The notes: generated from the letters alone by a model not told the origin. A stretch of 64,000 bases of DNA from an uncultured Gemmatimonadaceae bacterium (GCA_963829055.1 CAWHHI010000016.1:512001-576000); one strand, 5' to 3'; shown: positions 1-64,000, counted from the first letter of the stretch. A program made the numbers and translations.

Positions 1-1306
1 GCACGCCCCGCATGCACGGGAGACGGTCGTTCTCTCGAAATACTTCGGCGACAGCGAAGCCACGACGCTCGACGGCTGGCGCAAGCGCGGCGGCTACGTC
101 GCGCTCGAGAAGGCGTTAGGCATGACACCGGCCGAGATCGTGGGAATCGTCAAGGATTCGGGGCTCCGCGGTCGTGGCGGCGCCGGTTTCCCGACGGGGA
201 TGAAGTGGTCGTTCATGAAGCCGGGCGACGGGAAGCCGCACTACCTCTGCTGCAACGCCGACGAGTCCGAGCCGGGCACGTTCAAGGATCGCGAGATCAT
301 GCGCTGGACGCCGCACGCCCTCATCGAGGGCTGCGCGATCGGCGCGTACGCGATCGGCGCCGAGACGGCCTACATCTACATCCGCGGTGAGTTCACGGAG
401 CCGCTCGAGCGCATGGAGGCGGCAGTCCGCGAAGCGCGCGCGGCCGGCGTCATCGGGCCTAACGCGATGGGCACCGGCAAGCGCGTCGACGTCTGGGTGC
501 ACAAGGGCGCCGGCGCATACATCTGCGGCGAAGAAACGGCGCTCATGAACTCGCTCGAGGGACGCCGAGGCAACCCGCGCATCAAGCCGCCGTTCCCGGC
601 GGTCGCCGGCGTGTTCGGACAGCCGACGACGATCAACAACGTCGAGACGCTCGCCGCCGTGCCGCATATCCTGAACAACGGCGCGGAGTGGTACAAGAAA
701 TTCGCGCGTCCCGACAACCCGAAGAGCACGGGAACCAAGCTGTGGTCCGTGTGCGGTAACGTCGCACGACCAGGCAACTACGAAGTCGTAATGGGATTTC
801 CGTTCAAGGACTTCCTGTACGATCTCTGTGGTGGACCGTTGCCGGGCCGGAAGTTCAAAGCCGTCATTCCGGGCGGATCCTCGGTTCCGATCATGAACAT
901 GGAAGAGGCCGAGGCTGCGGTCATGGACTACGAAGGCATGGTGGCGAAAGGCTCCATGCTCGGCTCCGCGGGCTGCATCGTCATCGACGACGCGCAGTGC
1001 ATGGTCAAGCAGATCGCGCGCCTCGCGCGCTTCTACGCCCACGAGAGTTGCGCCCAGTGCACGCAGTGCCGTGAAGGCACGGCGTGGACGACGAAGATCA
1101 TGGAGCGCATCGAAGCAGGCGAGGGGTCGATGGATGACCTCGACACACTGCTCGAGATCGGTGACAGCATGACGGGCAAGACGATCTGCGTTCTCAGCGA
1201 CTCGTGCGCGGTGCCGGTCGTGTCGGGAATTCAGAAGTGGCGCCACGAGTTCGAAGCGCACATCAACGGCAAGCGGTGTCCGTTCCGCGCCGCCGCCGCG
1301 GCCTGA
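1..1306 (+). CDS. nuoF: NADH-quinone oxidoreductase subunit F (5' end outside window)
   Basis: GLRGRGGAGFPTG, NADESEPGTFKDR, GAGAYICGEETAL and ESCAQCTQCREG motifs; frame is open from position 2 upstream of the ATG at 122. Confidence 0.97.
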   Translation, partial: HAPHARETVVLSKYFGDSEATTLDGWRKRGGYVALEKALGMTPAEIVGIVKDSGLRGRGGAGFPTGMKWSFMKPGDGKPHYLCCNADESEPGTFKDREIMRWTPHALIEGCAIGAYAIGAETAYIYIRGEFTEPLERMEAAVREARAAGVIGPNAMGTGKRVDVWVHKGAGAYICGEETALMNSLEGRRGNPRIKPPFPAVAGVFGQPTTINNVETLAAVPHILNNGAEWYKKFARPDNPKSTGTKLWSVCGNVARPGNYEVVMGFPFKDFLYDLCGGPLPGRKFKAVIPGGSSVPIMNMEEAEAAVMDYEGMVAKGSMLGSAGCIVIDDAQCMVKQIARLARFYAHESCAQCTQCREGTAWTTKIMERIEAGEGSMDDLDTLLEIGDSMTGKTICVLSDSCAVPVVSGIQKWRHEFEAHINGKRCPFRAAAAA

Positions 1307-1339
1307 CGCCGCTGTCTCACGGTCTCGCCTAACGTATTC

Positions 1340-2911
1340 ATGGCTGACGTCAAGACGATCAACCTGACGATCGAGGGCCGGCCAGTCGCCGTCGCCGAGG
1401 GGACATCGATCCTCGAAGCGGCGCGCACGGCTGGCGTGCTCATTCCGCACTACTGCTACCACCCGGCGCTGCCGGTGGCGGGCGTGTGCCGCATGTGCCT
1501 CGTGGAAGTGGAGAAAGCCCCGAAGCTCGCGCCGGCGTGCGCGACGTCGGTGGCCGAGGGCCAGGTGGTGCACGTGCATTCCGAGAAAGCGCGCGAGGCC
1601 CGCAAGGGCGTGCTCGAGATGCTGCTCATCAACCACCCGCTCGATTGCCCGATCTGCGATCAGGCCGGCGAGTGCGAGCTCCAGGACTACACCTTCCAGG
1701 AAGGACGGAAAGACTCGCGCTACAAGGAGCCGAAGCGCTTCAACCCGATGGAAGACTTCGGCGGCGACGTCGTCTACGTCCCGAACCGCTGCATTCTGTG
1801 CACGCGTTGCGTGCGCTACATGGACGACGTCGCGCAGGACCCTGTGCTGAACGTCAGCGAGCGGGGCGATCGCGCCTACATCGGCAAGTTCGAGGGCAAG
1901 GATCTGACCCACCCGTGGGCAGGCAACGTCGTCGACCTGTGTCCGGTCGGAGCGCTGCTGTCCAAGGATTTCCTGAACAAGGCGCGCGCCTGGGAGCTCG
2001 ACCGCACCGCGTCCATCTGTCCCAACTGTACGCAGGGCTGCAACGCGATCATCGAGACGCGCGACAACGTCGTCGTCCGCATGCGCCCGCGTGGCAACCC
2101 CGACGTGAACGAGTTCTTCCTCTGTGACACCGGTCGACTCGACTATCGCTGGATGAACGGGCCGAACCGGCTCGAGCTGCCGGCGGTTCGGAACGGCACC
2201 GCGCTCGTGGACGCCGACTGGGATGTGGCGTTAGGCGCGGCCGCGACCGTACTGCGAGGGAAGCGCGCGCTCGTGCTGGCGTCACCGATGCTCTCGAACG
2301 AAGCGCTGCATCTGCTCAGCCGCGTCGTGAAGGCCACGGGCGGCAGCGGTGCGTTCCGTGTCGCTCGCGGCCCCGAAGCACCGCTGCCGGGCGTCAAGGA
2401 CCTGGCGCTCCGCTCGGAGCGCGCGGCAAACGTCGTCGGCGCCGAGAAGCTCGGCTTCACGAAGACCGACACGCCGCTCGCCGGCATGCGCGACGGCGAC
2501 GTGCTCCTGATCGTCAATCACGCGCTCACGGAGGCGGAGATCGCCACCGCGAACCGCGCGTCGGCGGTGGTCTTCGTTGGCACGACGTTGCCGGCTGGGC
2601 TGACGAACGTGGCAGCCGTGCTCCCGATCACGAACTTCGCCGAGGAAGAGGGCACGTTCACGAATCTGCGTGGTCGGGTCCAACGGTTCCTGCAAGCCAA
2701 GGCGGCGCCGGGACTGGCCCGACCGAGCTGGTTCGTGCTGGCCGACCTGCTTGCGTCGTTAGGCGAGACCACCAACTATTTCGTGCCGTCCGAGGTGTTC
2801 GCGGCGCTCGCCGCGAGTCATCCGGAGTTCGCGGGACTCAGCTACGACGCGTTGGGGCTGCGTGGGCTCCCCGTGGTCGGGGCCGCACAACCTGCAGGAG
2901 CGCCATCGTGA
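1340..2911 (+). CDS. nuoG: NADH-quinone oxidoreductase subunit G (short form, 523 aa)
   Basis: HYCYHP..CRMC, HPLDCPICDQAGECELQD, CILCTRC and CPNCTQGC Fe-S motifs; operon position. Confidence 0.93.
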   Translation: MADVKTINLTIEGRPVAVAEGTSILEAARTAGVLIPHYCYHPALPVAGVCRMCLVEVEKAPKLAPACATSVAEGQVVHVHSEKAREARKGVLEMLLINHPLDCPICDQAGECELQDYTFQEGRKDSRYKEPKRFNPMEDFGGDVVYVPNRCILCTRCVRYMDDVAQDPVLNVSERGDRAYIGKFEGKDLTHPWAGNVVDLCPVGALLSKDFLNKARAWELDRTASICPNCTQGCNAIIETRDNVVVRMRPRGNPDVNEFFLCDTGRLDYRWMNGPNRLELPAVRNGTALVDADWDVALGAAATVLRGKRALVLASPMLSNEALHLLSRVVKATGGSGAFRVARGPEAPLPGVKDLALRSERAANVVGAEKLGFTKTDTPLAGMRDGDVLLIVNHALTEAEIATANRASAVVFVGTTLPAGLTNVAAVLPITNFAEEEGTFTNLRGRVQRFLQAKAAPGLARPSWFVLADLLASLGETTNYFVPSEVFAALAASHPEFAGLSYDALGLRGLPVVGAAQPAGAPS

Positions 2912-5528: not shown

Positions 5529-7724
5529 TGCTGCTTCAGGAAGCGACCACGGGCGCGCATCCGCTCAGCGGCAGTATCGCCGAGTTGGTCTGGCTCATCC
5601 CGGTGCTGCCGTTCATCGGGTTTCTCATCAATGGCTGGCTCTCGATCGCGTCCGCGGTGCGAGTGGGTCCTCGCGACCCGAGCGCGGCTGGACACGACGC
5701 AGTAGGTCACGGCGAGGACCACGGGCACGGCGGCGATTCCGGCGGTGCGCATGGCGACGATCACCACGTAGCGGCTCGGCACAAGTATGCGAGCCTGGTG
5801 TCGCTCGTCGGCCCTGCGGTGCTGCTGCTCTCGTTCGGTCTCACCGTCGCCATCTTCATGGCGATGCTCGGCGTGAGTCGCGAGGCGCCGTTCGTGCGCA
5901 CGCTGTTCTCGTGGATTCCGGCCGGCGACCTGCACATCGACGCTGCGCTGCAAGTCGATCCACTCTCGATGGTGATGACGCTCGTCATCACGGGCGTCGG
6001 GACGCTGATCCACATTTTCAGCGTCGGTTACATGCAGGACGATCCGGGATACCCGCGCTACTTCGCGTATCTCAATCTGTTCGTCTCCTTCATGCTCGTG
6101 CTCGTGCTGGGCGCGAGCTATCCGGTGCTGTTCGTCGGCTGGGAAGGCGTCGGACTCTGCTCCTATCTGCTCATCGGATTCTGGTTCACCGACAAGGCAA
6201 ACGCGGACGCCGGCAAGAAGGCGTTCATCGTGAATCGCATCGGTGACTTCGGATTTCTGATCGCGATGTTCCTCATGTTCGCGAACCTGGGAGCGCTCGA
6301 CTTCGCCGGCGTGTCGGCCGCCGCGCCCGCGCTCGGCCTGAATAGCGCGCTGGCCACCACGATCTGCCTCTTCCTGTTCCTCGGCTGCGCGGGCAAGAGC
6401 GCGCAGATTCCGCTGTACGTCTGGCTGCCTGACGCGATGGCGGGTCCGACGCCGGTGTCGGCGCTGATCCATGCGGCGACGATGGTGACGGCGGGCGTGT
6501 ACCTCATCGCCCGCAGCTCGTTTCTGTTCTCGCTGGCGCCGGTCGCTCAGCTGACGGTCGCGTTCGTTGGCGCACTGACGGCGCTGTTCGCGGCGACCAT
6601 CGGGCTCAAGCAGTGGGACATCAAGCGCGTCCTCGCGTACTCGACGGTCTCGCAGCTCGGCTACATGTTCGTCGGCGTTGGCGTCGGTGCGTACGCGGCA
6701 GGTGTCTTCCACCTCGTGACGCACGCCTTCTTCAAGGCGCTGCTGTTCCTCGGCTCGGGCTCGGTGATCTTCGCGATGCACCGCGCCTACCACGCGACGC
6801 ACAACCACGACGACGCGCAGGACATGCGCAACATGGGCGGCCTCCGGCGCTACATGCCGGTGACGTTCGTCCTGATGTGGATCGCGACGCTGGCCATCGC
6901 GGGCATTCCGATCTTCGCCGGCTTCTTCTCGAAGGACGAGATCCTCGGCGCCGTGTTCGAGCGGGCGCACGAATCGACACTCGCGCAGGTGTCGTGGTTA
7001 GGCATTCCCGGAACGACGCTCCTGTATCTCATCTATGCCATGGGACTCGCGGCGGCGCTGCTGACGGCGATCTACATGACGCGGATGATGCTGTACACGT
7101 TCCACGGACCGAATCGCAGCGGCGAGACCGAGCAGTCGCATCTCGCCGAGGCACCGTGGGTCATGACGGGGCCGCTGGTGGTGTTAGGCGTCCTGAGCGC
7201 GTTCGGCGGTTGGCTCAACCTGCCCGTCGCTCTTGCCGATCGGTCCCATCGGCGTGCTCGAGCACTGGCTCGAGCCGGTCGTTGGTCCGGCGACGGCGGC
7301 GGTGACCGGCGGCGCAGCCGAACCTGCGCACTCCACTGAATTCGCGTTGATTGGCGCGGCGGTCGCGATTGCGGTGCTCGGTATCATCATCGCGTTCGTG
7401 CGGCTCAAGCCGGCGCGACTCGTGCCGAAAGCGCAGGCGCCGGAAGAGCAGGGAATCGAGCGCGTGCTGCTCAACAAGTACTACGTCGACGAGCTGTACG
7501 ATCGCACGATCGTTAGGCCGACCGTGTGGGTCTCGCGGAGCGTGCTGTCGCAGGGAGTCGATCAGGGGCTCATCGACAAGGTGCTCGTCACGTGGGTTGG
7601 CACCGGGATTCCGCGGCTGTTCGGCTGGTTCGGTTCGCGACTGCAATCAGGGCAGGTCGGCACGTACGCCTGGGTTCTTCTGATTGGCGTCATCGCGGTG
7701 CTCGGCGCCTTCACTCTCCGCTGA
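5528..7724 (+). CDS. nuoL: NADH-quinone oxidoreductase subunit L (frameshift near 7230, probably a sequencing error)
   Basis: GWEGVGLCSYLLIGFW, WLPDAMAGPTPVSALIHAATMV; C-terminus (KYYVDELY..LQSGQV) continues in the 7233-7724 frame. Confidence 0.93.
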
Positions 7725-9366: not shown

Positions 9367-10904
9367 TGCCGATCGATGTCACGCTCCCGGGCGGCCTAAC
9401 GCTGGCCCTTGTCCCGGACCTGATTCTGATCGCCGGCGCGATGGTACTCATGCTGTGGGCGGCGTGGAGGCCGGACAGCGCGAGCCATCAGCGATCCGTC
9501 GGTGTTGGAGCACTCCTGCTCACCGTCGTGACGACGGTCGCGGTGATCGTGTTCGCGATGGGTGGCTATACGGCCAAGCCCGGAATCATCGCGGTCGATG
9601 GCTTCCGCTGGGGCTCCGATCTGATCTTCCTGCTCGCGACGTTCATCGCGATCGCGCTCTCGATCGACTACAACACCCGCGAAGGCATCGACGCGCCTGA
9701 GTCGCACGTGCTCGTGCTGTTCGCGACGAGCGGCATGATGATGCTCGCCGCTGCGCGCGATCTCATGATCATCTTCCTCGGCATCGAGCTCATGTCGATC
9801 GCCGTGTACGTACTCGCGGGCCTCAATCGCCGCAGTGGGCGGTCGGCCGAAGCGGCGATCAAGTATTTCCTGCTCGGTGCGTTCTCGACGGCGTTCCTCC
9901 TGTACGGAATCGCCCTCGTGTACGGCGCGACCGGCGCGACGAACCTCACGGTCATCGCTGATCGCGTCCGACAGTTCCAGTTGGGCGAGAGCCCAATGTT
10001 GCTGGCCGGCATCGCACTGCTGCTCGTCGGTTTCAGCTTCAAGGTCGCCGCCGCGCCATTCCACATGTGGACGCCGGACGTGTACGAGGGCGCTCCGACA
10101 CCGATCACCGGCTACATGGCGGCTGCCGTCAAGGCAGCTGGCTTCGCCGCGTTCCTTCGCGTGTGGCTGGAGGCCTTTGGCGGTTCATACACGCGCTGGC
10201 ACGTTGCCGTATGGTGGATCGCGGCCATCACGATGGTCGTCGGTAACGTCGTCGCGCTCTCGCAGAAGAATCTCAAGCGCCTGCTCGCCTACTCGAGCAT
10301 CGCCCACTCGGGCTTCGTGCTCGTTGCGCTCGTCGTCGGCACGCCAGCGGGATCGTCGGCGTTCATCTTCTACCTGTTCGCGTACACCCTGGCGACGATG
10401 GGTGCGTTCGCGGTCATCGTCGCCCTCGGTCAGCCAGGCGAAGGCGACCTGACGATCGAGAGCTACGCCGGTCTGTGGAACGACCGTCCCTGGATGGCCG
10501 CCGCGATGACGGTGTTCATGCTCGCGCTGCTCGGCTTCCCGATCGTCGGCGGAATCGGCTTCCTCGCGAAGTGGTACGTGCTGCAGGCCGCCCTGCAGGC
10601 CCCCGCGCCGCAGGCCAGGCTCGCGGTACTGCTCGTCATCACGACGGCCATCTCCGCCGGCTACTATCTCCAGGTCGTGCGCGTGATGTACATGAAGCCG
10701 CGTGCGGCGAACGCAGTCGCGTCGCTGCCGACCGGAAGGCTGACGCGTTTCGTGATCGCGGCAGCAGCCATTCTCATCGTCGTCCTGGGGCTGTTCCCGG
10801 ATTCGCTCGCGAACCTGGCGCAGCGCGGAGCCGCCATTCCTCCGGCGCCGCAAACGGCGACGGCGGCGACCGAGACTTCCTTGCCAACGGCCGGAGGCCG
10901 GTAG
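9366..10904 (+). CDS. nuoN: NADH-quinone oxidoreductase subunit N
   Basis: EAAIKYFLLGA, FKVAAAPFHMWTPDVYEGAP, KRLLAYSSIAH. Confidence 0.96.
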   Translation: MPIDVTLPGGLTLALVPDLILIAGAMVLMLWAAWRPDSASHQRSVGVGALLLTVVTTVAVIVFAMGGYTAKPGIIAVDGFRWGSDLIFLLATFIAIALSIDYNTREGIDAPESHVLVLFATSGMMMLAAARDLMIIFLGIELMSIAVYVLAGLNRRSGRSAEAAIKYFLLGAFSTAFLLYGIALVYGATGATNLTVIADRVRQFQLGESPMLLAGIALLLVGFSFKVAAAPFHMWTPDVYEGAPTPITGYMAAAVKAAGFAAFLRVWLEAFGGSYTRWHVAVWWIAAITMVVGNVVALSQKNLKRLLAYSSIAHSGFVLVALVVGTPAGSSAFIFYLFAYTLATMGAFAVIVALGQPGEGDLTIESYAGLWNDRPWMAAAMTVFMLALLGFPIVGGIGFLAKWYVLQAALQAPAPQARLAVLLVITTAISAGYYLQVVRVMYMKPRAANAVASLPTGRLTRFVIAAAAILIVVLGLFPDSLANLAQRGAAIPPAPQTATAATETSLPTAGGR

Positions 10905-10948: not shown

Positions 10949-12316
10949 ATGCCAATCGCCGCCGGCATCTTTCGCCAGTATGACATCCGCGGCGTCGTCG
11001 GCGACGATCTGACCGTCGATGCCGCGCACGCGATCGGTCGCGCGTTCGCCGCGTTTCTCGCGCACCACGGCGTGACGCGACCCGTCGCTGTTGGTCGCGA
11101 CAACAGGCCAAGCGGACGGGCACTCCGCGATTCGCTGGTCGATGGGCTGACGACGTCGGGTGTGGACGTCGTCGACATCGGCGTCGTTCCGACACCGCTT
11201 CTCTACTGGAGCCTCTCGCACCTCGACGTCGGCGCCGGCATCCAGATCACCGGGTCTCACAATCCACCCGAATACAACGGCTTCAAGATCTGCCTCGGCA
11301 CCGATTCGGTGCACGGTGAGGAGATCCAGACGCTGTACCGTCTCGCGTTAGGCTCGACATTCCCGAGCGGGAAGGGATCGGTGCGGCACGAGGCCGTCAT
11401 CGACCCCTACATCGCCGACATCGTCGAGCGCACGGGTCGCCTCACGCGACCGCCGCGCGTTGTCATCGATTGCGGGAACGGTGCCGGCGCACTCGTCGCA
11501 CCGCAACTCTTCGGCAAGCTGCTGCCTGACGCGAAGTGCCTGTACTGCGAGAGCGACGGCACGTTCCCGAACCATCACCCCGATCCCACCGTCGTCGAGA
11601 ATCTCCAGCCGCTGATCGATGAGGTGGTGCGAGGCGGCTACGACTTCGGCGTAGCGTTCGACGGCGACGCCGACCGCATCGGCGTGGTCGACGGCACGGG
11701 CCAGATCATTTGGGGCGACTACCTGTTGATCCTCTACGCGCGCGACGTGTTCGCGCGGACGGGCAGCGCGCAACCGATCATCTTCGACGTGAAGTGCTCG
11801 CAGGCACTGCCTGACGCGGTCGCGAAAGCCGGCGGGACGCCGGTCATGTGGAGGACAGGCCACTCGCTCATCAAAGGGAAGATGAAAGAGTTGGGTGCGC
11901 CGATCGCCGGCGAAATGTCCGGCCACATGTTTTTCAGCGAGTCGTTCTACGGCCACGACGATGCGCTGTACGCCGCGGCAAGACTGATGCGCATCGTGTC
12001 AGACTCGGACCGCACGCTCGAGGATCTGCTCGCTGACGTTCCGCGCTTCGTCTCGACGCCGGAGATCCGCGTCGATTGCCCGGATGACCAGAAGTTCGGC
12101 ATCGTGGCTGACGCCGTGAAGCACTTCTCGCGTGACCACGAGGTCATCGAAGTCGACGGAGCGCGCGTGTTGTTCGGCGATGGCTGGGGACTCATTCGTG
12201 CGTCGAACACGCAGCCCGTGCTCGTCGTTCGGTTCGAAGCCCGCTCGGCCGAGCGGCTCGCGGAAATTCAGGGCGAGATGGAAGGCTGGCTTCGCTCGCG
12301 CGGCGTCGCGCCCTGA
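10949..12316 (+). CDS. Phosphomannomutase/phosphoglucomutase (AlgC-like)
   Basis: IFRQYDIRG, TGSHNP phosphoserine motif, FDGDADR, GEMSGH, RASNTQP. Confidence 0.93.
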   Translation: MPIAAGIFRQYDIRGVVGDDLTVDAAHAIGRAFAAFLAHHGVTRPVAVGRDNRPSGRALRDSLVDGLTTSGVDVVDIGVVPTPLLYWSLSHLDVGAGIQITGSHNPPEYNGFKICLGTDSVHGEEIQTLYRLALGSTFPSGKGSVRHEAVIDPYIADIVERTGRLTRPPRVVIDCGNGAGALVAPQLFGKLLPDAKCLYCESDGTFPNHHPDPTVVENLQPLIDEVVRGGYDFGVAFDGDADRIGVVDGTGQIIWGDYLLILYARDVFARTGSAQPIIFDVKCSQALPDAVAKAGGTPVMWRTGHSLIKGKMKELGAPIAGEMSGHMFFSESFYGHDDALYAAARLMRIVSDSDRTLEDLLADVPRFVSTPEIRVDCPDDQKFGIVADAVKHFSRDHEVIEVDGARVLFGDGWGLIRASNTQPVLVVRFEARSAERLAEIQGEMEGWLRSRGVAP

Positions 12317-25569: not shown

Positions 25570-25570
25570 C

Positions 25571-31852: not shown

Positions 31853-34283
<2,431 letters not shown>

Positions 34284-48748: not shown

Positions 48749-48790
48749 GGGAACAGCCTGCGGGGATTTCCCACAGTTCTCCACGCTGCT

Positions 48791-48818: not shown

Positions 48819-48834
48819 TGGCTGCGGCGGCGCT

Positions 48835-53457: not shown

Positions 53458-54137
53458 CAGCGTTGTGCTCCCAACCCAAATCGCCAGAGGGTGCCGACAA
53501 TGCGAGCCGAGTCGCGAACAGCTCGGAACTGGCTCGGGACGGTCGTGGGGTATCGCGTCGGCACTGGAACGTAGACAATGCGGTGACCGAGGCGGCCCGC
53601 GAGAATCAACAGCTCGGTCTCGAATTCGTAGCGGTCGCCCTGCGGCTTGATGTCGGAGACGACGTGTGCACGCAATGCACGGAAGCCGCTCTGCGCGTCC
53701 GCCACTGGGCGTCCGATGCAGTGCGCGACCGCTGCCGCCGACAGCCTGTTCGTTAGGCGGCGTCCGACCGGCATCTCGGGAGACCTGCGGTCACGCGCCC
53801 CGATCGCGACATCCGCGCTCTCGAGCGCACGAACCAGCTCCGGCGCGAACGACGGCTCGTGTTGTCCGTCCGCGTCCACGGTGAGCACGACGTCGGCATC
53901 CCGCTCCAGCGCCATGGCGAAGCCCGCACGAAGCGCTGCACCCTTGCCGAGATTTCGCGGAAAGCGACGCGTCTCGTCCGCGACACGGCTCGCGACCGAG
54001 TAGGTCTCGTCCGACGAGCCGTCGTCGATCACGGCTACGAACGCGGCCGGTAAGGCATCACGAAGGCCGGCAACGACGCCAGCAAGTGTCGGAGCCGCAT
54101 TGAGCGCTGGGACAACGCAGGCGACGCGTGCCGTCAC
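53457..54137 (-). CDS. GT2 family glycosyltransferase
   Basis: VPALN, IDDGSSDET, GKGAAL, DADGQH, DAQSGFR. Confidence 0.88.
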   Translation of the reverse strand: MTARVACVVPALNAAPTLAGVVAGLRDALPAAFVAVIDDGSSDETYSVASRVADETRRFPRNLGKGAALRAGFAMALERDADVVLTVDADGQHEPSFAPELVRALESADVAIGARDRRSPEMPVGRRLTNRLSAAAVAHCIGRPVADAQSGFRALRAHVVSDIKPQGDRYEFETELLILAGRLGHRIVYVPVPTRYPTTVPSQFRAVRDSARIVGTLWRFGLGAQR

Positions 54138-54550: not shown

Positions 54551-55543
54551 CAGTCCTGCTCTGCGCGAAGCTCGCGCTTCATGAGCTCCGAGATAGCCCG
54601 CCGGGCCGGTTGAGCTTCGAACAGAATTCGGTGCACCGCCAAGACGATAGGCATGTCCACTCCCTCGCGCTCCGCCAACGCGCGCGCGCTGATCGTATTG
54701 AGCACTCCTTCCGCGACCGTGTCCTTCCCTTCCAATGCCTGCTCGAGTGTGCTGCCCTTTCCCAGCTCCATCCCGAGCGCTCGATTGCGGCTGAGCGCGC
54801 CAGTACACGTGAGGACGAGGTCGCCGAGTCCCGCGAGGCCCGCAAACGTCGACTGTTTCGCGCCGAGCGCGATGCCCAGTCGCGTCATCTCGGCCAGCCC
54901 ACGCGTGATGAGCGCCGCGCGCGAGTTGAAGCCGAGTCCAAGCCCTTCAGCGATGCCCGTTGCGACCGCCATGACGTTCTTGAGTGCGCCGCCAAGCTCG
55001 ACACCAACGACATCATCATGCGTGTAGACACGGAACACGTCCGAGCTCAGTGCACGCTGCACACGCGACGCTGACTCCAGATCCTTCGATGCGGCCACGA
55101 CCGCTGTTGGCTGACCATTCGCAACTTCTGCTGCGAAGCTGGGCCCCGACAACGCAACCACCGGACGGCTCGGCACCGTATCGGCCACGACGTCGGACAT
55201 GATCGACAGAGTACCGCGCTCGATGCCCTTGCTGGCGACTACCAGCACCGCGTCGCGGTGAACGCAGCCGGCGCCACTCGCCGCGACCTCGCGCAGCGCG
55301 TGCGATGGCGCGACGTATATCACGACGTCGGCATCGCCTAACGCATCCGAGATCGACCCGGTGGCGTGCACACGCGGCATTCATCGCTACTCCAGGAAGA
55401 AAGCGCCGGTTCTCACGGGACGCGTTCACCGAGTCGACGACGTCGGGCTCACGCGCCCAGAGCTCGACGGCGTGACCGTTTGCCGCTAGTACGTTCGCGA
55501 GAGCACTGCCCCACGCGCCAGCGCCGATCACCGCGCTCTTCAC
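54550..55543 (-). CDS. gpsA: NAD(P)H-dependent glycerol-3-phosphate dehydrogenase (frameshift near 55380)
   Basis: GAGAWGSALA, then SKGIE, SGPSFA, GGALKNV, GLGDLVLTC, SRNR. Confidence 0.93.
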
Positions 55544-56220
55544 GAGACGCCCGGTCCATCCAGGCCGCCGCTCTCACCATTGCTCGGTGAAGGCGGCGGG
55601 GGCTGCTTTCTACCGAACCTCGGCTCGTCGCCGCGTCGGAGTCGCGCGATGTTCGAGCGGTGGGTCCAGAAGACGAACGCAGCAACGACAATGCTGACCG
55701 CGAACAGTGGAGAGCGGATGCCACGTAAGACGGCGATCGCGATCGGAAGGACCGCCGCGCCGGCGAGCGACGCGAGCGACATGTAGCCGCTCAGCACCAG
55801 CACGAGGAACCAGACCACGAGCGTGACGCCGATTGCCGCCGGTGCGAGCGCCCCGAAAACTCCCGACGCCGTTGCGACTCCCTTGCCGCCACCGTTCCAC
55901 AGCAGGAACACCGGCCTAACGTGGCCCGCGATGGCCGCGATGCCGAACGCGATGGACCACCATGTGGCGCTCGCAGCGGTAGCCACGCTCGGATCCAGCA
56001 ACCGCGGGAAGTAGAGTACCGGGAGCGCGCCCTTCGCCGCGTCGAACAACAACACCGCGACGGCGATCTTCGCCCCGAGAACGCGGTAGACGTTCGTCGC
56101 CCCGAGATTGCCCGAGCCGTGTTGTCGAAGGTCGATACCCTTCGTCAGCTTGCCAGCGATGTATGCCGCCGGGATCGACCCTGCCAGATAGGCGAGTACG
56201 AGACCCAGGTACGGAGACAC
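55540..56220 (-). CDS. plsY: Glycerol-3-phosphate acyltransferase PlsY
   Basis: YLAGSIP, GSGNLGATN, GGKGVAT, HRSNI. Confidence 0.95.
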   Translation of the reverse strand: MSPYLGLVLAYLAGSIPAAYIAGKLTKGIDLRQHGSGNLGATNVYRVLGAKIAVAVLLFDAAKGALPVLYFPRLLDPSVATAASATWWSIAFGIAAIAGHVRPVFLLWNGGGKGVATASGVFGALAPAAIGVTLVVWFLVLVLSGYMSLASLAGAAVLPIAIAVLRGIRSPLFAVSIVVAAFVFWTHRSNIARLRRGDEPRFGRKQPPPPSPSNGESGGLDGPGVS

Positions 56221-57529
56221 TTACGCGGCTCGCCTCCGGAGGAGGATGCGCAGCGGGTTGCCAGTGAAGCCCCACGCCTCGCGAAAGCCGTTGTGCAGGT
56301 AGCGCACGTAATGCTCGGCGAGCAGCTCGGGGTGGTTGCCGAACACCGCGATGGTTGGCGGCGCCGTCTCGACCTGCGTCGCGTACATCAGCTTGATCTC
56401 GCGCCCGGCGGCCTGCGGCGGCTGACGCCGCGCCACGAGCGCTTCGAGCGTGGTGTTCACCTGCGACGTCGTGATGCGCTTCGACCGCTCGGCATCGACC
56501 TCGAGCAGGATATCCAGCGCGCGCGTCACTCGCTGACCGGTCAGCGCAGACGTGAACAGGAACGGCACGAAGGAAAGGAATGGAGCCTTCTCTCCGGCCT
56601 CCTTCTGGAACTTGGCGGACGTCTTGTCGTCCTTCTCTTTCAGGTCCCACTTGTTCACGACGACGATCAGCCCGCGCCCCGCCTCCCAGGCGAGATTCGC
56701 GATCTTGAGATCCTGGTTGTGCAGTCCTTCGACGGCGTCGATCATCAGGATGCAGATGTCCGCGCGCTCGATGGCGCGTCGCGACCGCAGGGACGAGTAG
56801 AACTCGATGCCGTCGTCGACTTTCGACTGCCGACGCAATCCCGCGGTATCGATGAACACGATCGTACGTTCGTGGTACCGCATGGGCGTATCGATGGCGT
56901 CTCGCGTCGTTCCAGCGACTTCGGAGACCACGAGGCGGTCTTCCCCAAGCAGCCGGTTCACGAACGATGACTTGCCCACGTTAGGCCGTCCGATCACGGC
57001 CACTTTCAGCGCATCCTGCGCTTCCGGGGGAGCTGGCGGAATGCGTTCGACGACGAGGTCCAGCAGGTCGCCGGAGCTTTTGCCGTTGATGGCCGACACA
57101 GGAATCGGATCGCCCACGCCGAGCCGGTAGAACTCGTAGTAGTCCGTCGAACGCGGGTCATCGACCTTGTTGGCGACGAGCAGAAACGGCTTGCGGGAGT
57201 CGCGCAGCATGTCGACGACGTGCGCATCCATCGGGTGAATGCCCGCTTTCGCATCGACGACGAGCAACAGAAGGTCGGCTTCGGCGATCGCCTGATCCAC
57301 CTGCCGACGGATCTCGAGATCCATTGGCGCCTGCGGCGTTGTCCGTGACGCCACCCGTGTCCACGAGCCAGAACGTGTGGCCGGCCCACTCCGCTTCCGC
57401 GAAATGCCGATCGCGCGTGGTCCCTGCTTCGTCGCTGACGATGGCCGTGTGGCCGCCGACGATGCGGTTGAACAGTTCGGACTTGCCGACGTTAGGCCGG
57501 CCGATGAGTGCAACGACTGGAACGTTCAT
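56221..57529 (-). CDS. der: Ribosome biogenesis GTPase Der/EngA (frameshift near 57330)
   Basis: Two GRPNVGKS P-loops, GTTRD, DTAG, NKWD, C-terminal KH-like domain. Confidence 0.95.
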
Positions 57530-60683: not shown

Positions 60684-61865
60684 CTACGCCCGTTCCGTCG
60701 CAGCGTGGGCGAGTGTCGTGACATCCTGCAGCGAACGCCCGGTGGCCTCGGCGACCAGGCGCACGTCCTCGTACTCGGGCTTTGCGCGTCGGCGTCCATC
60801 CGGCAGCGCGGAAACCTTCACGCGCACATCGTGCCCGAGCACCTCGACTGTTCGCATGTCGCGTGCGAGGGCGTGTCTCGCCACACGACTCCAGCGCACT
60901 CCTAACGTCGTCGTACGGGAGAAGAGCAACGTTTGCAGCCCTGGGGCCTCGGCATCGCGACACAACACTTCAATGCGCGTGCCCATGCGACCCTTCTTCA
61001 TAACGACGGTGATGCAGGTCACATCGAGCGCGCCGGCTTCGCGTAAGGCGTCCGCCGCGGCGGCTACGTGCTCCGGCGACATATCGTCAATGTCCGTGGC
61101 CAGCAGTGCCAGCGTCTCCTCGCCGCCCCGCCCCGACCCGCTTGCGGCCACTTCCTCCGCGAGCATGATGCGAAGCGCGTTAGGCCGGTCCGCGGGATCC
61201 TTCGTACCGGCCCCGAATCCCGAACGGAGCGGCGTGTATTCGTCAGGCGTGTAGCCTGACGAGAGCACCCGAACCAGCGCCGCGCCAGTCGGCGTCACGA
61301 GCTCACCAGACCCCGCGGGCCCGGGCTTCACGCGGAGCCCCTCGAGCAGTTTGAGCGTCGCCGGCGCGGGCACAGGCAGAACACCGTGCGCTGCCTTCAC
61401 GAACCCGTCCCCGAGCATCAGCGTCCCGCAGTAGACACGCGTTATGCCCAGCTCGTGGAATCCCCAGATCGAGCCGAGGATATCGAGAATCGCGTCAACG
61501 GCGCCGACCTCATGCAGATGCACTCGCTCCATCGTCGTGCCGTGGATCTCCGCTTCCGCCGCCGTCACCGCGGTGAACGCCGCGTCGGCGCGATCGCGCA
61601 CCTCTGGTGGCGCTCCGGACGCATCCAGAATGCGCCGTATGTGGCTGAGATGTCGGCCGTGCGGCTGCGGCGGAACCGTGAAGTCCACCTTCTTGCACGC
61701 GATGCCGGAGCGGTGCACGTCGGTGACGTGCACCGCGACCCCGTCGAGCCCGAGACGATGCGGAAGCGACTTCAGCCACTCCACACTCAGTCCGAGGTCG
61801 ATCAGGGCGCCGAGTGTCATGTCCCCAGCGATGCCGCTGAAGGGGTCGAGGATAGCTATCGGCAC
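60684..61865 (-). CDS. larC: Nickel pincer cofactor biosynthesis protein LarC
   Basis: DPFSGIAGDM, HLHEVGAVDAI, HGVLPVPAPAT, ELVTPTGAA, MKKGR, KPEYED. Confidence 0.9.
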   Translation of the reverse strand: MPIAILDPFSGIAGDMTLGALIDLGLSVEWLKSLPHRLGLDGVAVHVTDVHRSGIACKKVDFTVPPQPHGRHLSHIRRILDASGAPPEVRDRADAAFTAVTAAEAEIHGTTMERVHLHEVGAVDAILDILGSIWGFHELGITRVYCGTLMLGDGFVKAAHGVLPVPAPATLKLLEGLRVKPGPAGSGELVTPTGAALVRVLSSGYTPDEYTPLRSGFGAGTKDPADRPNALRIMLAEEVAASGSGRGGEETLALLATDIDDMSPEHVAAAADALREAGALDVTCITVVMKKGRMGTRIEVLCRDAEAPGLQTLLFSRTTTLGVRWSRVARHALARDMRTVEVLGHDVRVKVSALPDGRRRAKPEYEDVRLVAEATGRSLQDVTTLAHAATERA

Positions 61866-61945: not shown

Positions 61946-63085
61946 TCAGCGGTACGAGGCACCGCTCCCGGTGTTGTAGACGACGACTTCGGCGTTGGGG
62001 TCCAAACGACCTGACTCGACGAGTTTCTGGGTCACCGCGAGGGCGCAGCCGCCTTCAGGGGCAGCGTCGATCCCGCTGCAGGACGCCAGCTGATACGTGG
62101 CCTTTCGGATCGTCTCCTCACCGACGCTGTCAGCCTCGCCTCGGCTCTCCCTCAATGCACGCAGAACGAGCCGATCCCCGAGCGGGCCAGGCACGCGCAG
62201 GCCAGCCGCATGTGTCGACGGGTTCTCCCATGGGGTGGCCGACTCCGCGCCCGCACGGAACGCACGCACCAGCGGCGCGCAACCATCCGCCTGCGCGACG
62301 ATGACGCGCGGGAAGCGCGTCTCTTTCGGTAGCCATCCCCAACGTACCATCTCGGCAAACGCCTTCCACATCCCAATGACGCCCTCGCCGCCCCCTGTCG
62401 GATACACGACGACATCCGGAAGCCGCCACTCGAGTTGCTCCGCGAGCTCGTAGCCGAGCGTCTTGTTGCCCTCGGCGCGGTACGGCTCGCGCAGCGTCGC
62501 GACGTTGAAGAAGCCGTCCGATGCGGCGAACGCGGTTGCGGCCTTGCCCGCGTCGCCAATGTGTCCGTCGACGAGCTGCAGGTCTGCGCCGACCGCTCGG
62601 ATGGTATCGAGTATCGGCTTGGGCGTCGTCGCGGGTGCGTATACCCGCACCGGCACGGCCGCCGCAGCACCGTACGCCGCGAGGGCCGCACCCGCGTTGC
62701 CGGCCGTCGGAACCACGAGCCCCGGAACTCCGTGTCCACGCGCGCGCGTCACAGCGGCGCTCAGCCCTCGGGCCTTGAACGACGCGGTCGGGTTCACCGC
62801 CTCGTCCTTGACCCACAGCCGCCTAACGCCGACGTCCTTCGCGAGTTGCGGAAGCTCGATGAGCGGCGTGAACCCTTCGCCGAGCGAGACGGGCTGCTCG
62901 CCAGCCTGCAGCGGCAGCGCGTCGGCATACCGCCACATGTCCCACCGGGACCGAAGCGCGGCGCGATCCGGCGTCGACGTGATCTCCGCGAGGAACGGTT
63001 GACCGCACTTCGGGCACGTTCCAACGCGCGCGCTGCTCGGTTCGTCGTGGCCACAGCCAGAACAGCGGAGAGTCCAGGTCGTCAC
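61946..63085 (-). CDS. thrC: Threonine synthase
   Basis: SLGEGFTPL, NPTASFKARG, PTAGNAG, YPTGGG. Confidence 0.85.
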   Translation of the reverse strand: MTTWTLRCSGCGHDEPSSARVGTCPKCGQPFLAEITSTPDRAALRSRWDMWRYADALPLQAGEQPVSLGEGFTPLIELPQLAKDVGVRRLWVKDEAVNPTASFKARGLSAAVTRARGHGVPGLVVPTAGNAGAALAAYGAAAAVPVRVYAPATTPKPILDTIRAVGADLQLVDGHIGDAGKAATAFAASDGFFNVATLREPYRAEGNKTLGYELAEQLEWRLPDVVVYPTGGGEGVIGMWKAFAEMVRWGWLPKETRFPRVIVAQADGCAPLVRAFRAGAESATPWENPSTHAAGLRVPGPLGDRLVLRALRESRGEADSVGEETIRKATYQLASCSGIDAAPEGGCALAVTQKLVESGRLDPNAEVVVYNTGSGASYR

Positions 63086-64000
63086 GGTGTGTCGGGAGTT
63101 TGAGAGACATGAAGAACTTCAGGAACGTCGTGCGGGTCGTGCTCGTGGGACGTCGATTCGTTGGGCACTACTGTCTCCGGCAGCGCATCGTTAGGCGTCG
63201 GCTCGGTGGCGTCAGCCACCGCGACGGCCTGCGACGCGCCCGCGACGTCGGATGCAGTCCCCTGATGCGGACCTGCCAATCTGTCGAGCAGCTTCTGGGC
63301 GCTCGATGCGGAAAATCCCGGAAGCGCGGCGATCTGCTCGACCGTCGCCTCACGAACGCCCTGCACACTCCCGAACGTCTGAATGAGCGCGCGGCGCTTC
63401 GACGGTCCGATCCCCGGGATGCTGAGCAGCTCCGACGTGACCGTGCGCAACGAACGCCGCTTCCGATTATACGTCACCGCGAACCGATGCGCTTCGTCCC
63501 GCGCCTGCTGCAGCATGCGCAGCCCCGGTGATCGGCGCGGCAGGCGAACGGGGTCGGAGCGACCGATGACGAAGATCTCCTCCTCACGCTTCGCGAGGCT
63601 GATCAACTGCAGCGTCTCGAGGTTGAGCTCTCGTAGTGCGTCCGCGGCGGCACTCAGCTGGCCCTTGCCGCCGTCGATGACGACGAGGTCCGGGAGCGCT
63701 TTCTGTTCGTCGAGACGCCGCCGAAAATATCGCCCGACGACTTCACGCATCGACGCAAAGTCGTCGGTGCCAACGACCGTCTTCACCTTGAACTTGCGAT
63801 ACTCCGCACGGCGCGGGCGCCCGTTCTCGAACCACACGCACGAGCCCACGGTGTCGGTGCCCTGCGCGGTGGAAATGTCGAAGCACACGAGCGAGCGAGG
63901 GAGGCGTTGCAGCCCGAGGGCACGACCCAACTCGTAGACGGGACTCGTCGCGCGCTCCTCGCTCTCGAGCGTCGCGAGCTTGAGCTCCTCCAAGCAGGTG
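63082..64000 (-). CDS. uvrC: Excinuclease ABC subunit C (5' part outside window)
   Basis: CFDIS, DDFASMREV, PDLVVIDGGKGQL, RDEAHRFA, IPGIG HhH. Confidence 0.95.
   Translation of the reverse strand, partial: TCLEELKLATLESEERATSPVYELGRALGLQRLPRSLVCFDISTAQGTDTVGSCVWFENGRPRRAEYRKFKVKTVVGTDDFASMREVVGRYFRRRLDEQKALPDLVVIDGGKGQLSAAADALRELNLETLQLISLAKREEEIFVIGRSDPVRLPRRSPGLRMLQQARDEAHRFAVTYNRKRRSLRTVTSELLSIPGIGPSKRRALIQTFGSVQGVREATVEQIAALPGFSASSAQKLLDRLAGPHQGTASDVAGASQAVAVADATEPTPNDALPETVVPNESTSHEHDPHDVPEVLHVSQTPDTP

What the first reader, a model, noticed from the sequence alone, without database searches (positions are those of the whole stretch)
114..63196. Strongly over-represented non-palindromic octamer CGTTAGGC/GCCTAACG embedded in coding sequence throughout the window
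Seen: 33 exact copies counted by eye. CGTTAGGC at 114, 2229, 2757, 7511, 11346, 12530, 20218, 21475, 26743, 32704, 34506, 41867, 43032, 53751, 56979, 57490, 61178, 63189. GCCTAACG at 457, 1327, 9394, 15963, 20869, 25564, 26414, 30887, 43247, 51202, 51481, 51817, 55336, 55914, 62821. About 13 more share the GTTAGG core with one end mismatch. A base-composition estimate at ~67% GC gives only about 2-3 copies. Copies fall in several reading frames and use codons that are otherwise rare here (TTA-GGC Leu-Gly, GTT-AGG Val-Arg, CTA-ACG Leu-Thr, CCT-AAC Pro-Asn) while keeping conserved residues, for example both Der GRPNVGKS loops and PyrG ASLGR. The signal is therefore at DNA level. Orientation is balanced on both sides of dif (13:9 left, 5:6 right), unlike Chi or KOPS. 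Inference: a DNA-uptake-sequence- or HIP1-like genomic signature, a methylase-driven motif, or a matS-like Ter-macrodomain binding site. I do not recognise it as a described motif.
Basis: partly seen in the sequence, partly recalled or inferred. Interest (0 to 1): 0.85.

Follow-up and report, generated by a model that had tools for sequence, protein, structure and literature searches.

The report
Hyper-abundant genome word CGTTAGGC
This soil bacterium has written one eight-letter DNA word about 5,000 times through its ordinary genes against its own codon habits, much like the self-recognition tags of Neisseria and Haemophilus, and the word is also the conserved end of integron gene-cassette sites; what reads it is unknown.

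Summary
All 33 copies lie at the stated coordinates, against 1.06 expected. The genome (Gemmatimonadaceae, 7.78 Mb) holds 5,004 copies, 0.64 per kb on every contig. That is 19x an order-3 Markov null and 24x a synonymous-codon shuffle.

The signal is at DNA level:
- All four stop-free reading frames are used.
- Orientation is random with respect to neighbours, genes and GC skew.
- There is no flank beyond 8 bp.
- Copies avoid each other within about 300 bp.

Copies arise by synonymous changes such as CTC-GGC to TTA-GGC. They are kept 1.7-2.8x better than average 8-mers. The trait is patchy: 16 of 401 sampled Gemmatimonadota genomes, and it differs within one genus.

It is not Ter-restricted, so matS is refuted, and it is not Chi/KOPS-like. 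The best analogy is a DUS/USS-type uptake or recombination tag (confidence about 0.4). HIP1-like binding, biased repair and an integron-linked reader are rivals.

The word equals the R' end of attC sites in integron arrays of the same order. Integrase, Vsr, RecC, AddB, ComEA and three pilins do not co-distribute with it.

This scan has found the same word before in other Gemmatimonadaceae genomes. No searched paper contains it.

The parts
114..121 (+). CGTTAGGC copy, upstream edge of nuoF region
   Evidence: same word at the aligned place in G001, G003, G005, G014
457..464 (-). copy in NuoF, read G-CCT-AAC-G (G-P-N-A)
   Evidence: shared with G001, G014
1327..1334 (-). copy between nuoF and nuoG
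   Evidence: shared with G001, G003, G005
2229..2236 (+). copy in NuoG, GCG-TTA-GGC (A-L-G)
   Evidence: G001 same, G005 CGTTAGGT, G003 CGCTGGGG
2757..2764 (+). copy in NuoG, TCG-TTA-GGC (S-L-G)
   Evidence: G001 same, G003 CGCTCGGT
7511..7518 (+). copy, C-GTT-AGG-C (V-R) in a small ORF
   Evidence: in G000 only among six genomes
9394..9401 (-). copy in NuoN, GC-CTA-ACG (L-T)
   Evidence: G000 only; others CGTCAGCC
11346..11353 (+). copy in phosphoglucomutase-type gene, GCG-TTA-GGC
   Evidence: G000 only
12530..12537 (+). copy in UPF0182 gene, C-GTT-AGG-C
   Evidence: G000 only
15963..15970 (-). copy in SucC, GC-CTA-ACG (L-T)
   Evidence: shared by all five compared genomes including genus g9
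20218..20225 (+). copy in FabH, GCG-TTA-GGC
   Evidence: shared with G001, G003, G004; G005 CGTTAGGT
20869..20876 (-). copy in FabH, GC-CTA-ACG
   Evidence: shared with G001, G003, G004, G005; covered by a run contig
21475..21482 (+). copy in FabD, C-GTT-AGG-C
   Evidence: G005 same, G001 TGTTAGGC, G003/G004 CGTGCGAC
25564..25571 (-). copy across the end of a radical-SAM (Mqn-type) gene
   Evidence: G000 only; others CGTCAGGC, one change away
26414..26421 (-). copy across the end of the MqnA-like gene
   Evidence: shared with G003, G004, G014
26743..26750 (+). copy in radical-SAM gene, GCG-TTA-GGC
   Evidence: G000 only; others CGCTCGGC, two changes away
30887..30894 (-). copy in unnamed 502-aa ORF, GC-CTA-ACG
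   Evidence: shared with G001, G005
32704..32711 (+). copy in PyrG, TCG-TTA-GGC-CGC (S-L-G-R)
   Evidence: In 30 pyrG orthologues the place reads CTC/CTG-GGN except in 5 genomes with the word and 2 with CGTTAGGG
34506..34513 (+). copy in KdsA-like gene, C-GTT-AGG-C
   Evidence: shared with G001, G005
41867..41874 (+). copy downstream of rpoN, no confident ORF
   Evidence: shared with G001, G003, G004, G005
43032..43039 (+). copy in glycosyltransferase, C-GTT-AGG-C
   Evidence: shared with G001, G003, G004, G005
43247..43254 (-). copy in glycosyltransferase, GC-CTA-ACG
   Evidence: G000 only; G003 CGTTAGCC
51202..51209 (-). copy in unnamed 472-aa ORF (- strand), CCG-TTA-GGC
   Evidence: region not aligned in the five genomes
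51481..51488 (-). copy in the same ORF, TCG-TTA-GGC
51817..51824 (-). copy in the same ORF, GCG-TTA-GGC
53751..53758 (+). copy in a 226-aa ORF (- strand), GC-CTA-ACG
   Evidence: shared with G001, G005
55336..55343 (-). copy in GpsA, GCG-TTA-GGC
   Evidence: G005 same, G001 CGTTAGGT
55914..55921 (-). copy in a 226-aa ORF, C-GTT-AGG-C
   Evidence: G000 only; others CGTCAGGC/CGTGAGGC
56979..56986 (+). copy in Der, second P-loop, CGG-CCT-AAC-GTG (R-P-N-V)
   Evidence: G000 only; G001/G005 CGTTCGGC
57490..57497 (+). copy in Der, first P-loop GRPNVGKS, read CCT-AAC in the N-terminal frame
   Evidence: shared with G001, G005
61178..61185 (+). copy in LarC-like gene, CGG-CCT-AAC-GCG
   Evidence: not compared with other genomes
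62821..62828 (-). copy in PLP-dependent enzyme gene, C-GTT-AGG-C
   Evidence: not compared
63189..63196 (+). copy in a 303-aa ORF, ACG-CCT-AAC-GAT
   Evidence: not compared

Best explanation
CGTTAGGC is a DNA-level tag read as double-stranded DNA, in either orientation, by a sequence-specific protein that has not been identified. The reading is strict at letters 2-7 and looser at letters 1 and 8.

The most likely mechanism is the one known for DNA uptake sequences. DNA fragments carrying the word are preferentially taken up and/or recombined into the chromosome. Alleles that happen to gain the word are therefore transmitted more often (molecular drive, possibly helped by selection). Over time the word accumulates in all long-resident DNA of the lineage, at sites that were already one to three changes away, until about one copy per 1.5 kb is reached. 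A second copy within roughly 300 bp brings no further gain.

Shown here: the hyper-abundance, the DNA-level nature, the gains by substitution, the retention above background, the short-range exclusion, the presence on all replicons, the lack in acquired-looking DNA, and the patchy lineage distribution.

Inferred, not shown: that uptake or recombination is the step that is biased, and that a protein reads the word.
For: Abundance. There are 5,004 copies (2,547 + and 2,457 -) at 0.48-0.80 per kb on each of 20 contigs. It is the top octamer under an order-3 Markov null: 5,004 against 257.5. In 3,917 CDS there are 2,654 copies against 110.7 after synonymous shuffling.

DNA level. All four stop-free frames are used. 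Of 2,529 confidently framed sites, the counts are 1,046, 706, 452 and 325. There is no conserved flank. Of [S/P/T/A]-L-G tripeptides, 1,065 of 4,392 are spelled NCG-TTA-GGC, although TTA makes up 1.6% of Leu codons overall.

Orientation. It is random with respect to neighbours (2,589 of 4,984 pairs the same) and to GC skew (616:569 and 734:732).

Spacing. Mean spacing is 1,529 bp. The pair correlation is 0.22, 0.45 and 0.77 in the first three 100-bp bins and about 1 beyond. Five control octamers of equal abundance give 1.2-2.0 in the first bin.

Neisseria comparison, from section 7 of PMC2397512. One DUS suffices, two closely spaced DUS do not raise transformation, and the mean spacing of composite DUS is about 1,500 nt.

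Gains and retention.
- 69 aligned places carry the word in at least one of six genomes.
- Non-word orthologues differ mostly by 2-3 letters at positions 3-5.
- Retention is 14/27, 8/26, 7/22, 13/25 and 4/23, against all-8-mer baselines of 0.19, 0.18, 0.16, 0.19 and 0.10.

All replicons. In the complete genome G300, samples give 0.60, 0.75, 0.62 and 0.86 per kb on its four contigs, including a plasmid-sized contig of about 15 kb.

Acquired DNA. A word-poor 24-kb lower-GC stretch holds a plasmid-type replication initiator.

Uptake hardware in G000. ComEC, DprA, a PilQ-like secretin (258.5 bits, below the family's 284-bit cut-off), three PilT-family ATPases and seven pilin-like genes are present.
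Against: No uptake or transformation data exist for this lineage.

The competence genes found are not specific to word-rich genomes. ComEC is in 31 of 31 genomes. A ComEA-type match was not found in G000 or G004, and matches are weak elsewhere. No ComP_DUS match was found, but that model rang in no control genome, so this says little. Three of the seven pilin-like proteins were tested, and all have equally similar homologues in word-rich and word-poor genomes.

Several features differ from DUS. Copies sit mainly inside genes. Close inverted pairs are not favoured; they are depleted (13 of 40 pairs at 60 bp or less; observed/expected 0.10-0.12 under 50 bp).

The trait differs from DUS dialects. 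It is all-or-none and patchy: 16 of 401 sampled genomes, and 3 of 4 in genus g40. Word-poor relatives show no alternative word.

Flanks of shared copies are not clearly more similar between species than random flanks, so there is no sign of recent exchange.
Confidence: 0.4

Rival explanations
1. HIP1-like. The word is the binding site of an abundant chromosome-organising or nucleoid protein, and each copy is kept by selection for chromosome structure, not by biased transmission.
For: The over-representation (19-49x) and the retention above background match what Xu et al. report for HIP1, read here as the abstract of PMC5861425: 15- to 300-fold excess, conserved sites, and no peptide, RNA or expression role. 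Strand and frame independence fit. Presence on all replicons fits. Short-range exclusion could reflect a footprint or spacing need.
Against: The word is not a palindrome. An exclusion zone of about 300 bp is far larger than a single protein footprint. Long gaps are about Poisson (99th percentile 6,837 bp against about 7,000 expected), so even coverage is not enforced. The all-or-none difference within one genus is odd for a core architectural role. The 10-90 kb periodicity reported for HIP1 was not tested.
Confidence: 0.2
2. Integron-linked reader. The word is read by an integron-integrase-type recombinase or another factor that recognises the attC core, and the genome-wide copies exist because of that system.
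For: In word-poor relatives the word occurs as same-strand runs about every 600 bp. These runs are attC sites with the form GCCTAAC ... inverted repeat ... C-GTTAGGC. R' reads CGTTAGGC in 34 of 41 pattern hits in G021 and G029 arrays. The core is defined as GTTRRRY / RYYYAAC in passages of PMC3053210. G000 has its own integrase (265.7 bits against a cut-off of 265) with a co-oriented array using the same end. Earlier notes of this scan say the same word is hyper-abundant in a second phylum; I did not test this. If true, it would fit a word fixed by a universal element.
Against: Integrase does not co-distribute with the trait: it is over the cut-off in 5 of 10 enriched and 13 of 21 non-enriched relatives. 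Genomic copies lack attC structure; only 25 exact R''..R' pairs lie 50-150 bp apart among 5,004 copies, no more than the other arrangements. Variant spectra differ: arrays use CGTTAGAC (4 of 41), which is depleted genome-wide (24 copies, 0.42x), whereas genome-wide variants are TGTTAGGC, CGTTAGGT, CGTTAGGG and CGTTATGC. Integrases insert cassettes at a mere GWT consensus, from passages of bioRxiv 10.1101/2022.09.11.507474. The truncated integrase N-domain at C4 has no counterpart in G004, G010 or G018.
Confidence: 0.12
3. Biased repair. A very-short-patch-like system resolves mismatches or heteroduplexes inside near-cognate sites toward the word, so the excess is continually replenished.
For: Internal one-off variants are below expectation (0.2-0.8x), while the word itself is 49x an order-2 null. 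The word arises from near-cognate ancestors by 1-3 substitutions against the genome's GC bias.
Against: Vsr was not found in any of the 10 enriched relatives; it occurs in 3 of 31 genomes, all non-enriched. The null is inflated by the word's own trinucleotides, so the apparent depletion is soft. A repair bias alone does not explain the 300-bp exclusion. No known system repairs toward an 8-bp non-palindrome at several positions.
Confidence: 0.1
4. Chi-like self tag. The word stops or modulates a DNA-degrading helicase-nuclease, protecting tagged DNA.
For: It is an octamer, abundant on all replicons including a small plasmid, and missing from acquired-looking DNA.
Against: There is no orientation bias with replication. 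RecC was found in 0 of 31 relatives, while the control rang in E. coli. Alpha-type AddB was found in 0 of 10 enriched genomes, with weak hits in 4 non-enriched ones. Other AddB or AdnAB models were not searched. The excess is far above what I recall for known Chi sites.
Confidence: 0.08
5. Methylase-driven motif, matS-like Ter site, or sequencing artefact.
For: The methylase reading is untested. C-to-T variants at letters 1 and 8 are common (435 and 827 copies), which could be read as deamination of methylated C.
Against: matS: density is uniform on all contigs. Artefact: independent assemblies and orthologous conservation exclude it. Methylation: G-to-A variants at letters 2, 6 and 7 are rare (13, 24 and 24 copies). 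The asymmetry therefore fits looser reading of the end letters better than decay, and known restriction or modification sites are usually avoided, not enriched (recalled).
Confidence: 0.05

Closest known systems
DNA uptake sequences: DUS of Neisseriaceae and USS of Pasteurellaceae
   Same: Both are short non-palindromic words at about one per 1-1.5 kb on both strands. Both are lineage-specific, conserved at orthologous places and rare in foreign DNA. One-off variants are also enriched, and a second nearby copy brings no benefit (PMC2397512 section 7).
   Different: This word is 8 bp rather than 9-12 bp. It lies mostly inside genes, whereas about 35% of DUS are in genes (Table 1 of that paper). 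Inverted pairs are depleted rather than used as terminators. The trait is patchy down to within a genus, with no dialects in word-poor relatives. No ComP-type receptor was found, and uptake bias is untested.
HIP1 (GCGATCGC) of cyanobacteria
   Same: Both are octamers with tens-fold excess, embedded in coding sequence in several frames and conserved more than neutral.
   Different: HIP1 is a palindrome and this word is not. The phylum differs. HIP1's 10-90 kb periodicity was not tested here.
Integron attC core site (R' box, GTTRRRY)
   Same: Letters 2-8 are a GTTRRRY core, and the full octamer is the R' end of attC sites in arrays of the same order.
   Different: More than 99% of the genomic copies have no R'' partner, no hairpin and no cassette. 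They lie in housekeeping genes in both orientations.
Chi and KOPS
   Same: All are over-represented octamers read on chromosomal DNA.
   Different: Chi and KOPS are skewed with replication direction and this word is not. RecC and alpha-type AddB were not found.

Membership tests
DUS/USS uptake sequences | Hyper-abundant short word, about 1 per kb, both strands, genome-wide | tested here: met
   5,004 copies, 0.64 per kb, 2,547:2,457, on all 20 contigs
DUS/USS uptake sequences | Biased uptake or transformation of DNA carrying the word | not testable with these tools
   Needs a competition or transformation assay in a cultured word-rich strain
DUS/USS uptake sequences | Competence machinery present (pilus, ComEC, DprA, ComEA) | tested here: inconclusive
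   ComEC, DprA, three PilT-family ATPases and seven pilin-like genes are present, plus a PilQ-like secretin that scores below its family cut-off. ComEA was not found in G000 at E<=0.001. All of these are equally present in word-poor relatives.
DUS/USS uptake sequences | Dedicated receptor (ComP-type minor pilin in Neisseria) | tested here: inconclusive
   There is no PF16732 match, but the model rang in no control genome. Three of seven pilin-like proteins were tested and show no +/- pattern.
DUS/USS uptake sequences | Inverted pairs forming terminators; intergenic enrichment (DUS) | tested here: not met
   Inverted pairs under 50 bp have observed/expected 0.10-0.12. The non-coding or unclear share is 37% against 30% for random places.
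DUS/USS uptake sequences | Shared by the whole family, with dialects | tested here: not met
   16 of 401 genomes are enriched; genus g40 is split 3:1. No other hyper-abundant octamer appears in samples of G008, G016, G009 and G020.
HIP1 | Palindromic octamer | tested here: not met
   The reverse complement is GCCTAACG
HIP1 | Sites conserved more than neutral expectation | tested here: met
   52%, 31%, 32%, 52% and 17% retained, against 19%, 18%, 16%, 19% and 10% for all 8-mers
HIP1 | Periodic distribution at 10-90 kb | not tested
   Only spacing up to 4 kb was analysed
Chi / KOPS | Orientation skew with replication direction | tested here: not met
   616:569 in G>C windows and 734:732 in C>G windows
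Chi | RecBCD or AddAB reader present | tested here: not met
   RecC in 0 of 31 genomes. Alpha-type AddB in 0 of 10 enriched genomes. Other AddB or AdnAB types were not searched.
matS (Ter macrodomain) | Restricted to the terminus region, few tens of copies | tested here: not met
   Uniform at 0.48-0.80 per kb on all contigs
Integron attC site | R''-L''...L'-R' imperfect inverted repeat of 57-141 bp at a cassette end | tested here: not met
   Met by the arrays in G021 and by G000 C20:197-207 kb. Not met by the genome-wide copies.

The most novel reading that the evidence does not exclude
The tag and the integron are two halves of one system. A reader that recognises the universal attC core has been recruited for DNA acquisition or recombination in some Gemmatimonadales (and, per untested notes of this scan, in a second phylum). 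These bacteria would then mark their own genomes with the integron core word, and would also preferentially acquire or recombine integron cassette arrays, each cassette of which carries the word. That would link natural transformation or recombination bias directly to the environmental cassette pool.
Probability: 0.12. Interest if true: 0.9.

Novelty: new variant of a known kind. Interest (0 to 1): 0.75.

Why it matters
Genome-wide recognition words are known from very few lineages: Neisseriaceae, Pasteurellaceae and cyanobacteria. For HIP1 the function is still open after decades.

- The trait is all-or-none between close relatives (three of four genomes in one genus), which allows comparative genomics.
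- One complete four-replicon genome carries it.
- Near-identical strains occur in at least 14 public metagenome runs, which allows population tests of biased transmission.

The identity with the integron core site is a concrete, testable lead that could connect two mechanisms of gene acquisition. In practice the word is also a sharp marker for binning and for spotting chimeric or foreign DNA in these genomes.

Tried and rejected
- **Extended motif:** there is no information beyond 8 bp.
- **Operator-like clusters:** there is no cluster of three or more GTTAGG cores within 40-bp steps anywhere in the genome.
- **attC-like hazard:** R''..R' pairs are no more depleted than the other arrangements.
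- **Recent exchange:** flanks of shared copies are at most marginally more similar than random flanks (0.82-0.84 against 0.78 for G003 and G004, none for G001 and G005), with 4-14 sites per genome. This is not used as evidence.
- **Reader candidates by co-distribution in 31 relatives (10 enriched), none fits:**
  - integron integrase
  - Vsr
  - ComEC
  - ComEA
  - RecC
  - alpha-type AddB
- **Pilins:** three pilin-like proteins were tested in three enriched and two non-enriched genomes and show no pattern. Four of the seven pilin-like genes were not tested.
- **Truncated integrase N-domain (C4:2850-3344):** it is a remnant followed by stop codons and is not shared by G004, G010 or G018.
- **ComEC neighbourhood:** ORFs were listed but not pursued.
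- **dif:** two searches with consensus forms I recalled found nothing. The site was then seen by eye.
- **Methylases:** not examined.
- **Literature:** the exact word in either orientation occurs in 0 papers. A search for Gemmatimonad + integron + attC gave 6 papers; judging by titles and abstract openings in the listing, none concerns this word.

Full report
**1. Observation**

Dinucleotide-preserving shuffles give a mean of 1.06 and a maximum of 5.

The window is G000:C16:512001-576000 of a 7.78-Mb, 20-contig assembly that is 86% complete. Record titles of the nearest contigs found with a window protein place it in the Gemmatimonadaceae.

The window is a housekeeping region. It holds nuoF-N, sucCD, plsX-fabHDGF, menaquinone genes, a XerC/D-type recombinase, pyrG, rpoN and der.

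**2. Genome-wide statistics**

- G000 holds 5,004 copies (2,547 + and 2,457 -), at 0.48-0.80 per kb on every contig.
- It is the most over-represented octamer under an order-3 Markov model: 5,004 against 257.5, or 19x. The next entries are its overlapping sub-words.
- A maximal-order Markov model does not flag it, because its own 6- and 7-mers carry the excess.
- A codon-aware null gives 2,654 copies in 3,917 predicted CDS, against 110.7 +/- 9.8 after shuffling synonymous codons within genes.
- TTA is 1.6% of Leu codons overall but 30% inside [S/P/T/A]-L-G tripeptides.
- 1,065 of 4,392 such tripeptides are spelled NCG-TTA-GGC, and 1,065 of 2,288 TTA codons lie in the word.
- No information lies outside the eight letters.

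**3. Anatomy**

All four frames that avoid a stop codon are used. Of 2,529 confidently framed sites out of 5,002, the counts are:

| Reading | Sites |
|---|---|
| CG-TTA-GGC | 1,046 |
| G-CCT-AAC-G | 706 |
| GC-CTA-ACG | 452 |
| C-GTT-AGG-C | 325 |

The unclear share is like that of random places, 2,473 of 5,002 against 2,358 of 5,000. With a laxer classifier it is 1,853 of 5,002 against 1,523 of 5,000.

Orientation is random with respect to the neighbouring copy (2,589 of 4,984 the same) and to GC skew. The cumulative skew of contig C16 peaks at the window. An AT-rich dif-like site lies at about 48,790-48,819 between convergent genes. The window therefore holds the terminus, yet its density is ordinary, which excludes a matS-like role.

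Copies avoid each other at short range. The pair correlation is 0.22 under 100 bp, 0.45 at 100-200 bp and 0.77 at 200-300 bp, then about 1. Five control octamers of like abundance cluster instead, at 1.2-2.0. The exclusion holds for direct and both inverted arrangements. Long gaps follow Poisson expectation.

One-off variants show strict reading of the inner letters and looser ends (that null is inflated by the word itself):

| Variant | Observed / expected |
|---|---|
| TGTTAGGC | 14.8x |
| CGTTAGGT | 17x |
| CGTTAGGG | 9.3x |
| CGTTATGC | 7.7x |
| all other internal variants except CGTCAGGC (2.1x) | 0.2-0.8x |

**4. Where the word is missing**

The three largest word-free stretches are 49.6, 46.8 and 31.5 kb. 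All lie at contig ends and hold fragmentary housekeeping genes such as FtsK, GreA, FolD, IlvD and GlnA. I suspect chimeric joins or contaminant DNA in this metagenome-assembled genome; I did not verify this.

A 24-kb stretch of lower GC with a single copy holds an RND pump, a PLD-type protein and a plasmid-type replication initiator. That fits acquired DNA.

**5. Evolution**

I aligned 60 kb of the window with four congeners (78-79% DNA identity) and one genome of genus g9 (72%). This gave 69 places where at least one genome has the word.

- Some copies are shared by all genomes (15963).
- Many are clade-specific.
- Nine of the 27 G000 copies aligned to G001 are in G000 alone among the six genomes.

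Orthologous non-word sequences differ by 1 (34 cases), 2 (72), 3 (72), 4 (43) or more (15) letters. The differences lie mostly at letters 3-5, for example CGCTCGGC or CGTCAGGC.

In pyrG, 30 orthologues read CTC/CTG-GGN at two Leu-Gly places. The word-bearing genomes instead read TTA-GGC, including an independent case in G018.

G000's copies are retained at 14/27, 8/26, 7/22, 13/25 and 4/23. The shares for all 8-mers are 0.194, 0.178, 0.162, 0.188 and 0.099.

**6. Distribution**

Among 31 relatives, 10 have at least twice the count of the reversed-word control:
- all 7 of genus g1, with 2,501-5,112 copies;
- G014, with 6,360 copies in 5.1 Mb;
- G010, with 605;
- G030, with 345.

G018 has 194 copies and the rest have 65 or fewer.

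In an even sample of 401 Gemmatimonadota genomes, 16 meet the same criterion: 13 of 94 in the family, 3 of 166 in a second family, and 0 of 141 elsewhere. Genus g40 has three genomes with 3,479-4,141 copies and one (G289) with 66.

A single-gene PyrG tree of 30 rows leaves the genera unresolved. It does place G010 and G018 next to word-poor genera.

G014 and G010 use the same word. Samples of four word-poor genomes contain zero copies and no other comparably enriched octamer.

In the complete genome G300, all four contigs carry the word at 0.60-0.86 per kb. This includes a 20,952-bp contig that repeats after about 15 kb, which suggests a small circular plasmid.

The unpublished genomes G013, G079, G118 and G199 enter only as non-enriched rows of these tallies.

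**7. The integron connection**

Word-poor genomes showed dense same-strand runs of the word at contig ends. These runs are integron cassette arrays. Each repeat reads GCCTAAC, then an imperfect inverted repeat, then C-GTTAGGC, at intervals of about 500-1,300 bp. R' reads CGTTAGGC in 34 of 41 pattern hits; the other hits read CGTTAGAC (4), CGTTAGCA (1), CGTTATGC (1) and one likely false hit. This matches the RYYYAAC / GTTRRRY definition of attC ends (passages of PMC3053210).

Integron integrase is over its cut-off in 18 of 31 relatives, but in 5 of 10 enriched against 13 of 21 non-enriched. G000 has one integrase with a co-oriented array at C20:197-208 kb, and a truncated remnant.

The genome-wide copies lack attC structure. 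Published work finds that integrases need only a GWT consensus for genomic insertion (passages of bioRxiv 10.1101/2022.09.11.507474).

The identity of the two words is therefore striking, but I could not show a causal link.

**8. Search for a reader**

- ComEC is in 31 of 31 genomes.
- G000 has DprA, a PilQ-like secretin (below the family cut-off), three PilT ATPases and seven pilin-like genes.
- Nothing tested tracks the trait: Vsr in 0 of 10 enriched; RecC in 0 of 31; alpha-type AddB in 0 of 10 enriched; ComEA weak and not found in G000; three pilins alike in enriched and non-enriched genomes.
- ComP_DUS was uninformative.

**9. Independent data**

Near-identical sequence is held by 14 DNA runs with at least half of the sampled words, from at least 11 studies of soil, rhizosphere and sediment. 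Contigs of four of these runs cover window 20-40 kb at about 98-99% identity. None of the 40 listed differences falls in a copy; 589 differences were not shown.

**10. Verdict**

The word is a real, strong, DNA-level, lineage-specific signal. In anatomy it is closest to uptake sequences, and the Neisseria data on spacing and on the uselessness of a second close copy match well. It fails several DUS features: intergenic inverted pairs, family-wide dialects and a known receptor. Uptake itself is untested. I therefore give the uptake/recombination-tag mechanism 0.4 and keep HIP1-like binding, an integron-linked reader, biased repair and a Chi-like tag as rivals.

**11. Prior knowledge**

The exact word appears in none of about 8.4 million searched papers and preprints.

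This scan has reported the same word before, in more than a dozen notes on other Gemmatimonadaceae genomes, with the same DUS-like reading and the same integron-core match. I had found the attC match independently before reading those notes.

Their claim of a second phylum is untested here.

Noticed in passing
window 57,324-57,350 (der, - strand): The der gene changes frame between its first GTPase domain and the rest. G000 has one extra base near 57,336 that G001, G003, G004 and G005 lack. This is most likely an assembly error rather than a broken essential gene.
   Followed up: partly
window 48,790-48,819: An AT-rich dif-like site (inner ATAA ... TTAT arms) lies between convergent genes, where gene orientation and GC skew flip. 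A XerC/D-type recombinase gene lies at 28,687-29,637. The site does not contain the word.
   Followed up: partly
window 27,541-27,616; 34,734-34,815; 41,592-41,662: A dispersed repeat of about 75-80 bp has tens of copies, in both orientations, in the congeneric genomes. One of the bins of very high contig depth (34,675-35,341) holds one of these copies. It may be a small mobile or REP-like element.
   Followed up: no
G000 C6:5,440-55,037; C11:1-46,789; C6:591,808-623,330: Three word-free stretches of 31-50 kb lie at contig ends and hold fragmentary housekeeping genes (FtsK, GreA, FolD, IlvD, GlnA, chorismate synthase). They are probably chimeric joins or contaminant DNA, and the word could serve as a binning check.
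   Followed up: partly
G000 C20:197,000-208,958: The integron integrase gene (- strand) has its cassette array downstream and co-oriented, the 'inverted' layout. A short GTTAGGC...GCCTAAC hairpin sits just past its stop codon.
   Followed up: partly
G000 C4:2,850-3,344: A truncated integron integrase: only the N-terminal ~104 residues, followed by stop codons. G002 has a match to the same 2-104 range at a contig edge.
   Followed up: partly
G000 C3:422,560-446,226: A lower-GC (0.63) stretch with one copy of the word holds an AcrB-type pump, a histidine kinase, a PLD-type protein and a plasmid-type replication initiator. It is probably an integrated mobile element.
   Followed up: partly
L202-L203 (G289:C95, C67 samples): In the word-poor congener of genus g40, words of the TGCTTTCT / CTGCTTTC type occur 15-17 times in 40 kb against about 1 expected. 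They may belong to a repeat family.
   Followed up: no
L200-L201 (G300:C4): The 20,952-bp contig repeats itself after about 15 kb, so it looks like a small circular replicon assembled with overlap. It carries the word at about 0.8 per kb, including an inverted pair flanking a GC-rich hairpin.
   Followed up: partly
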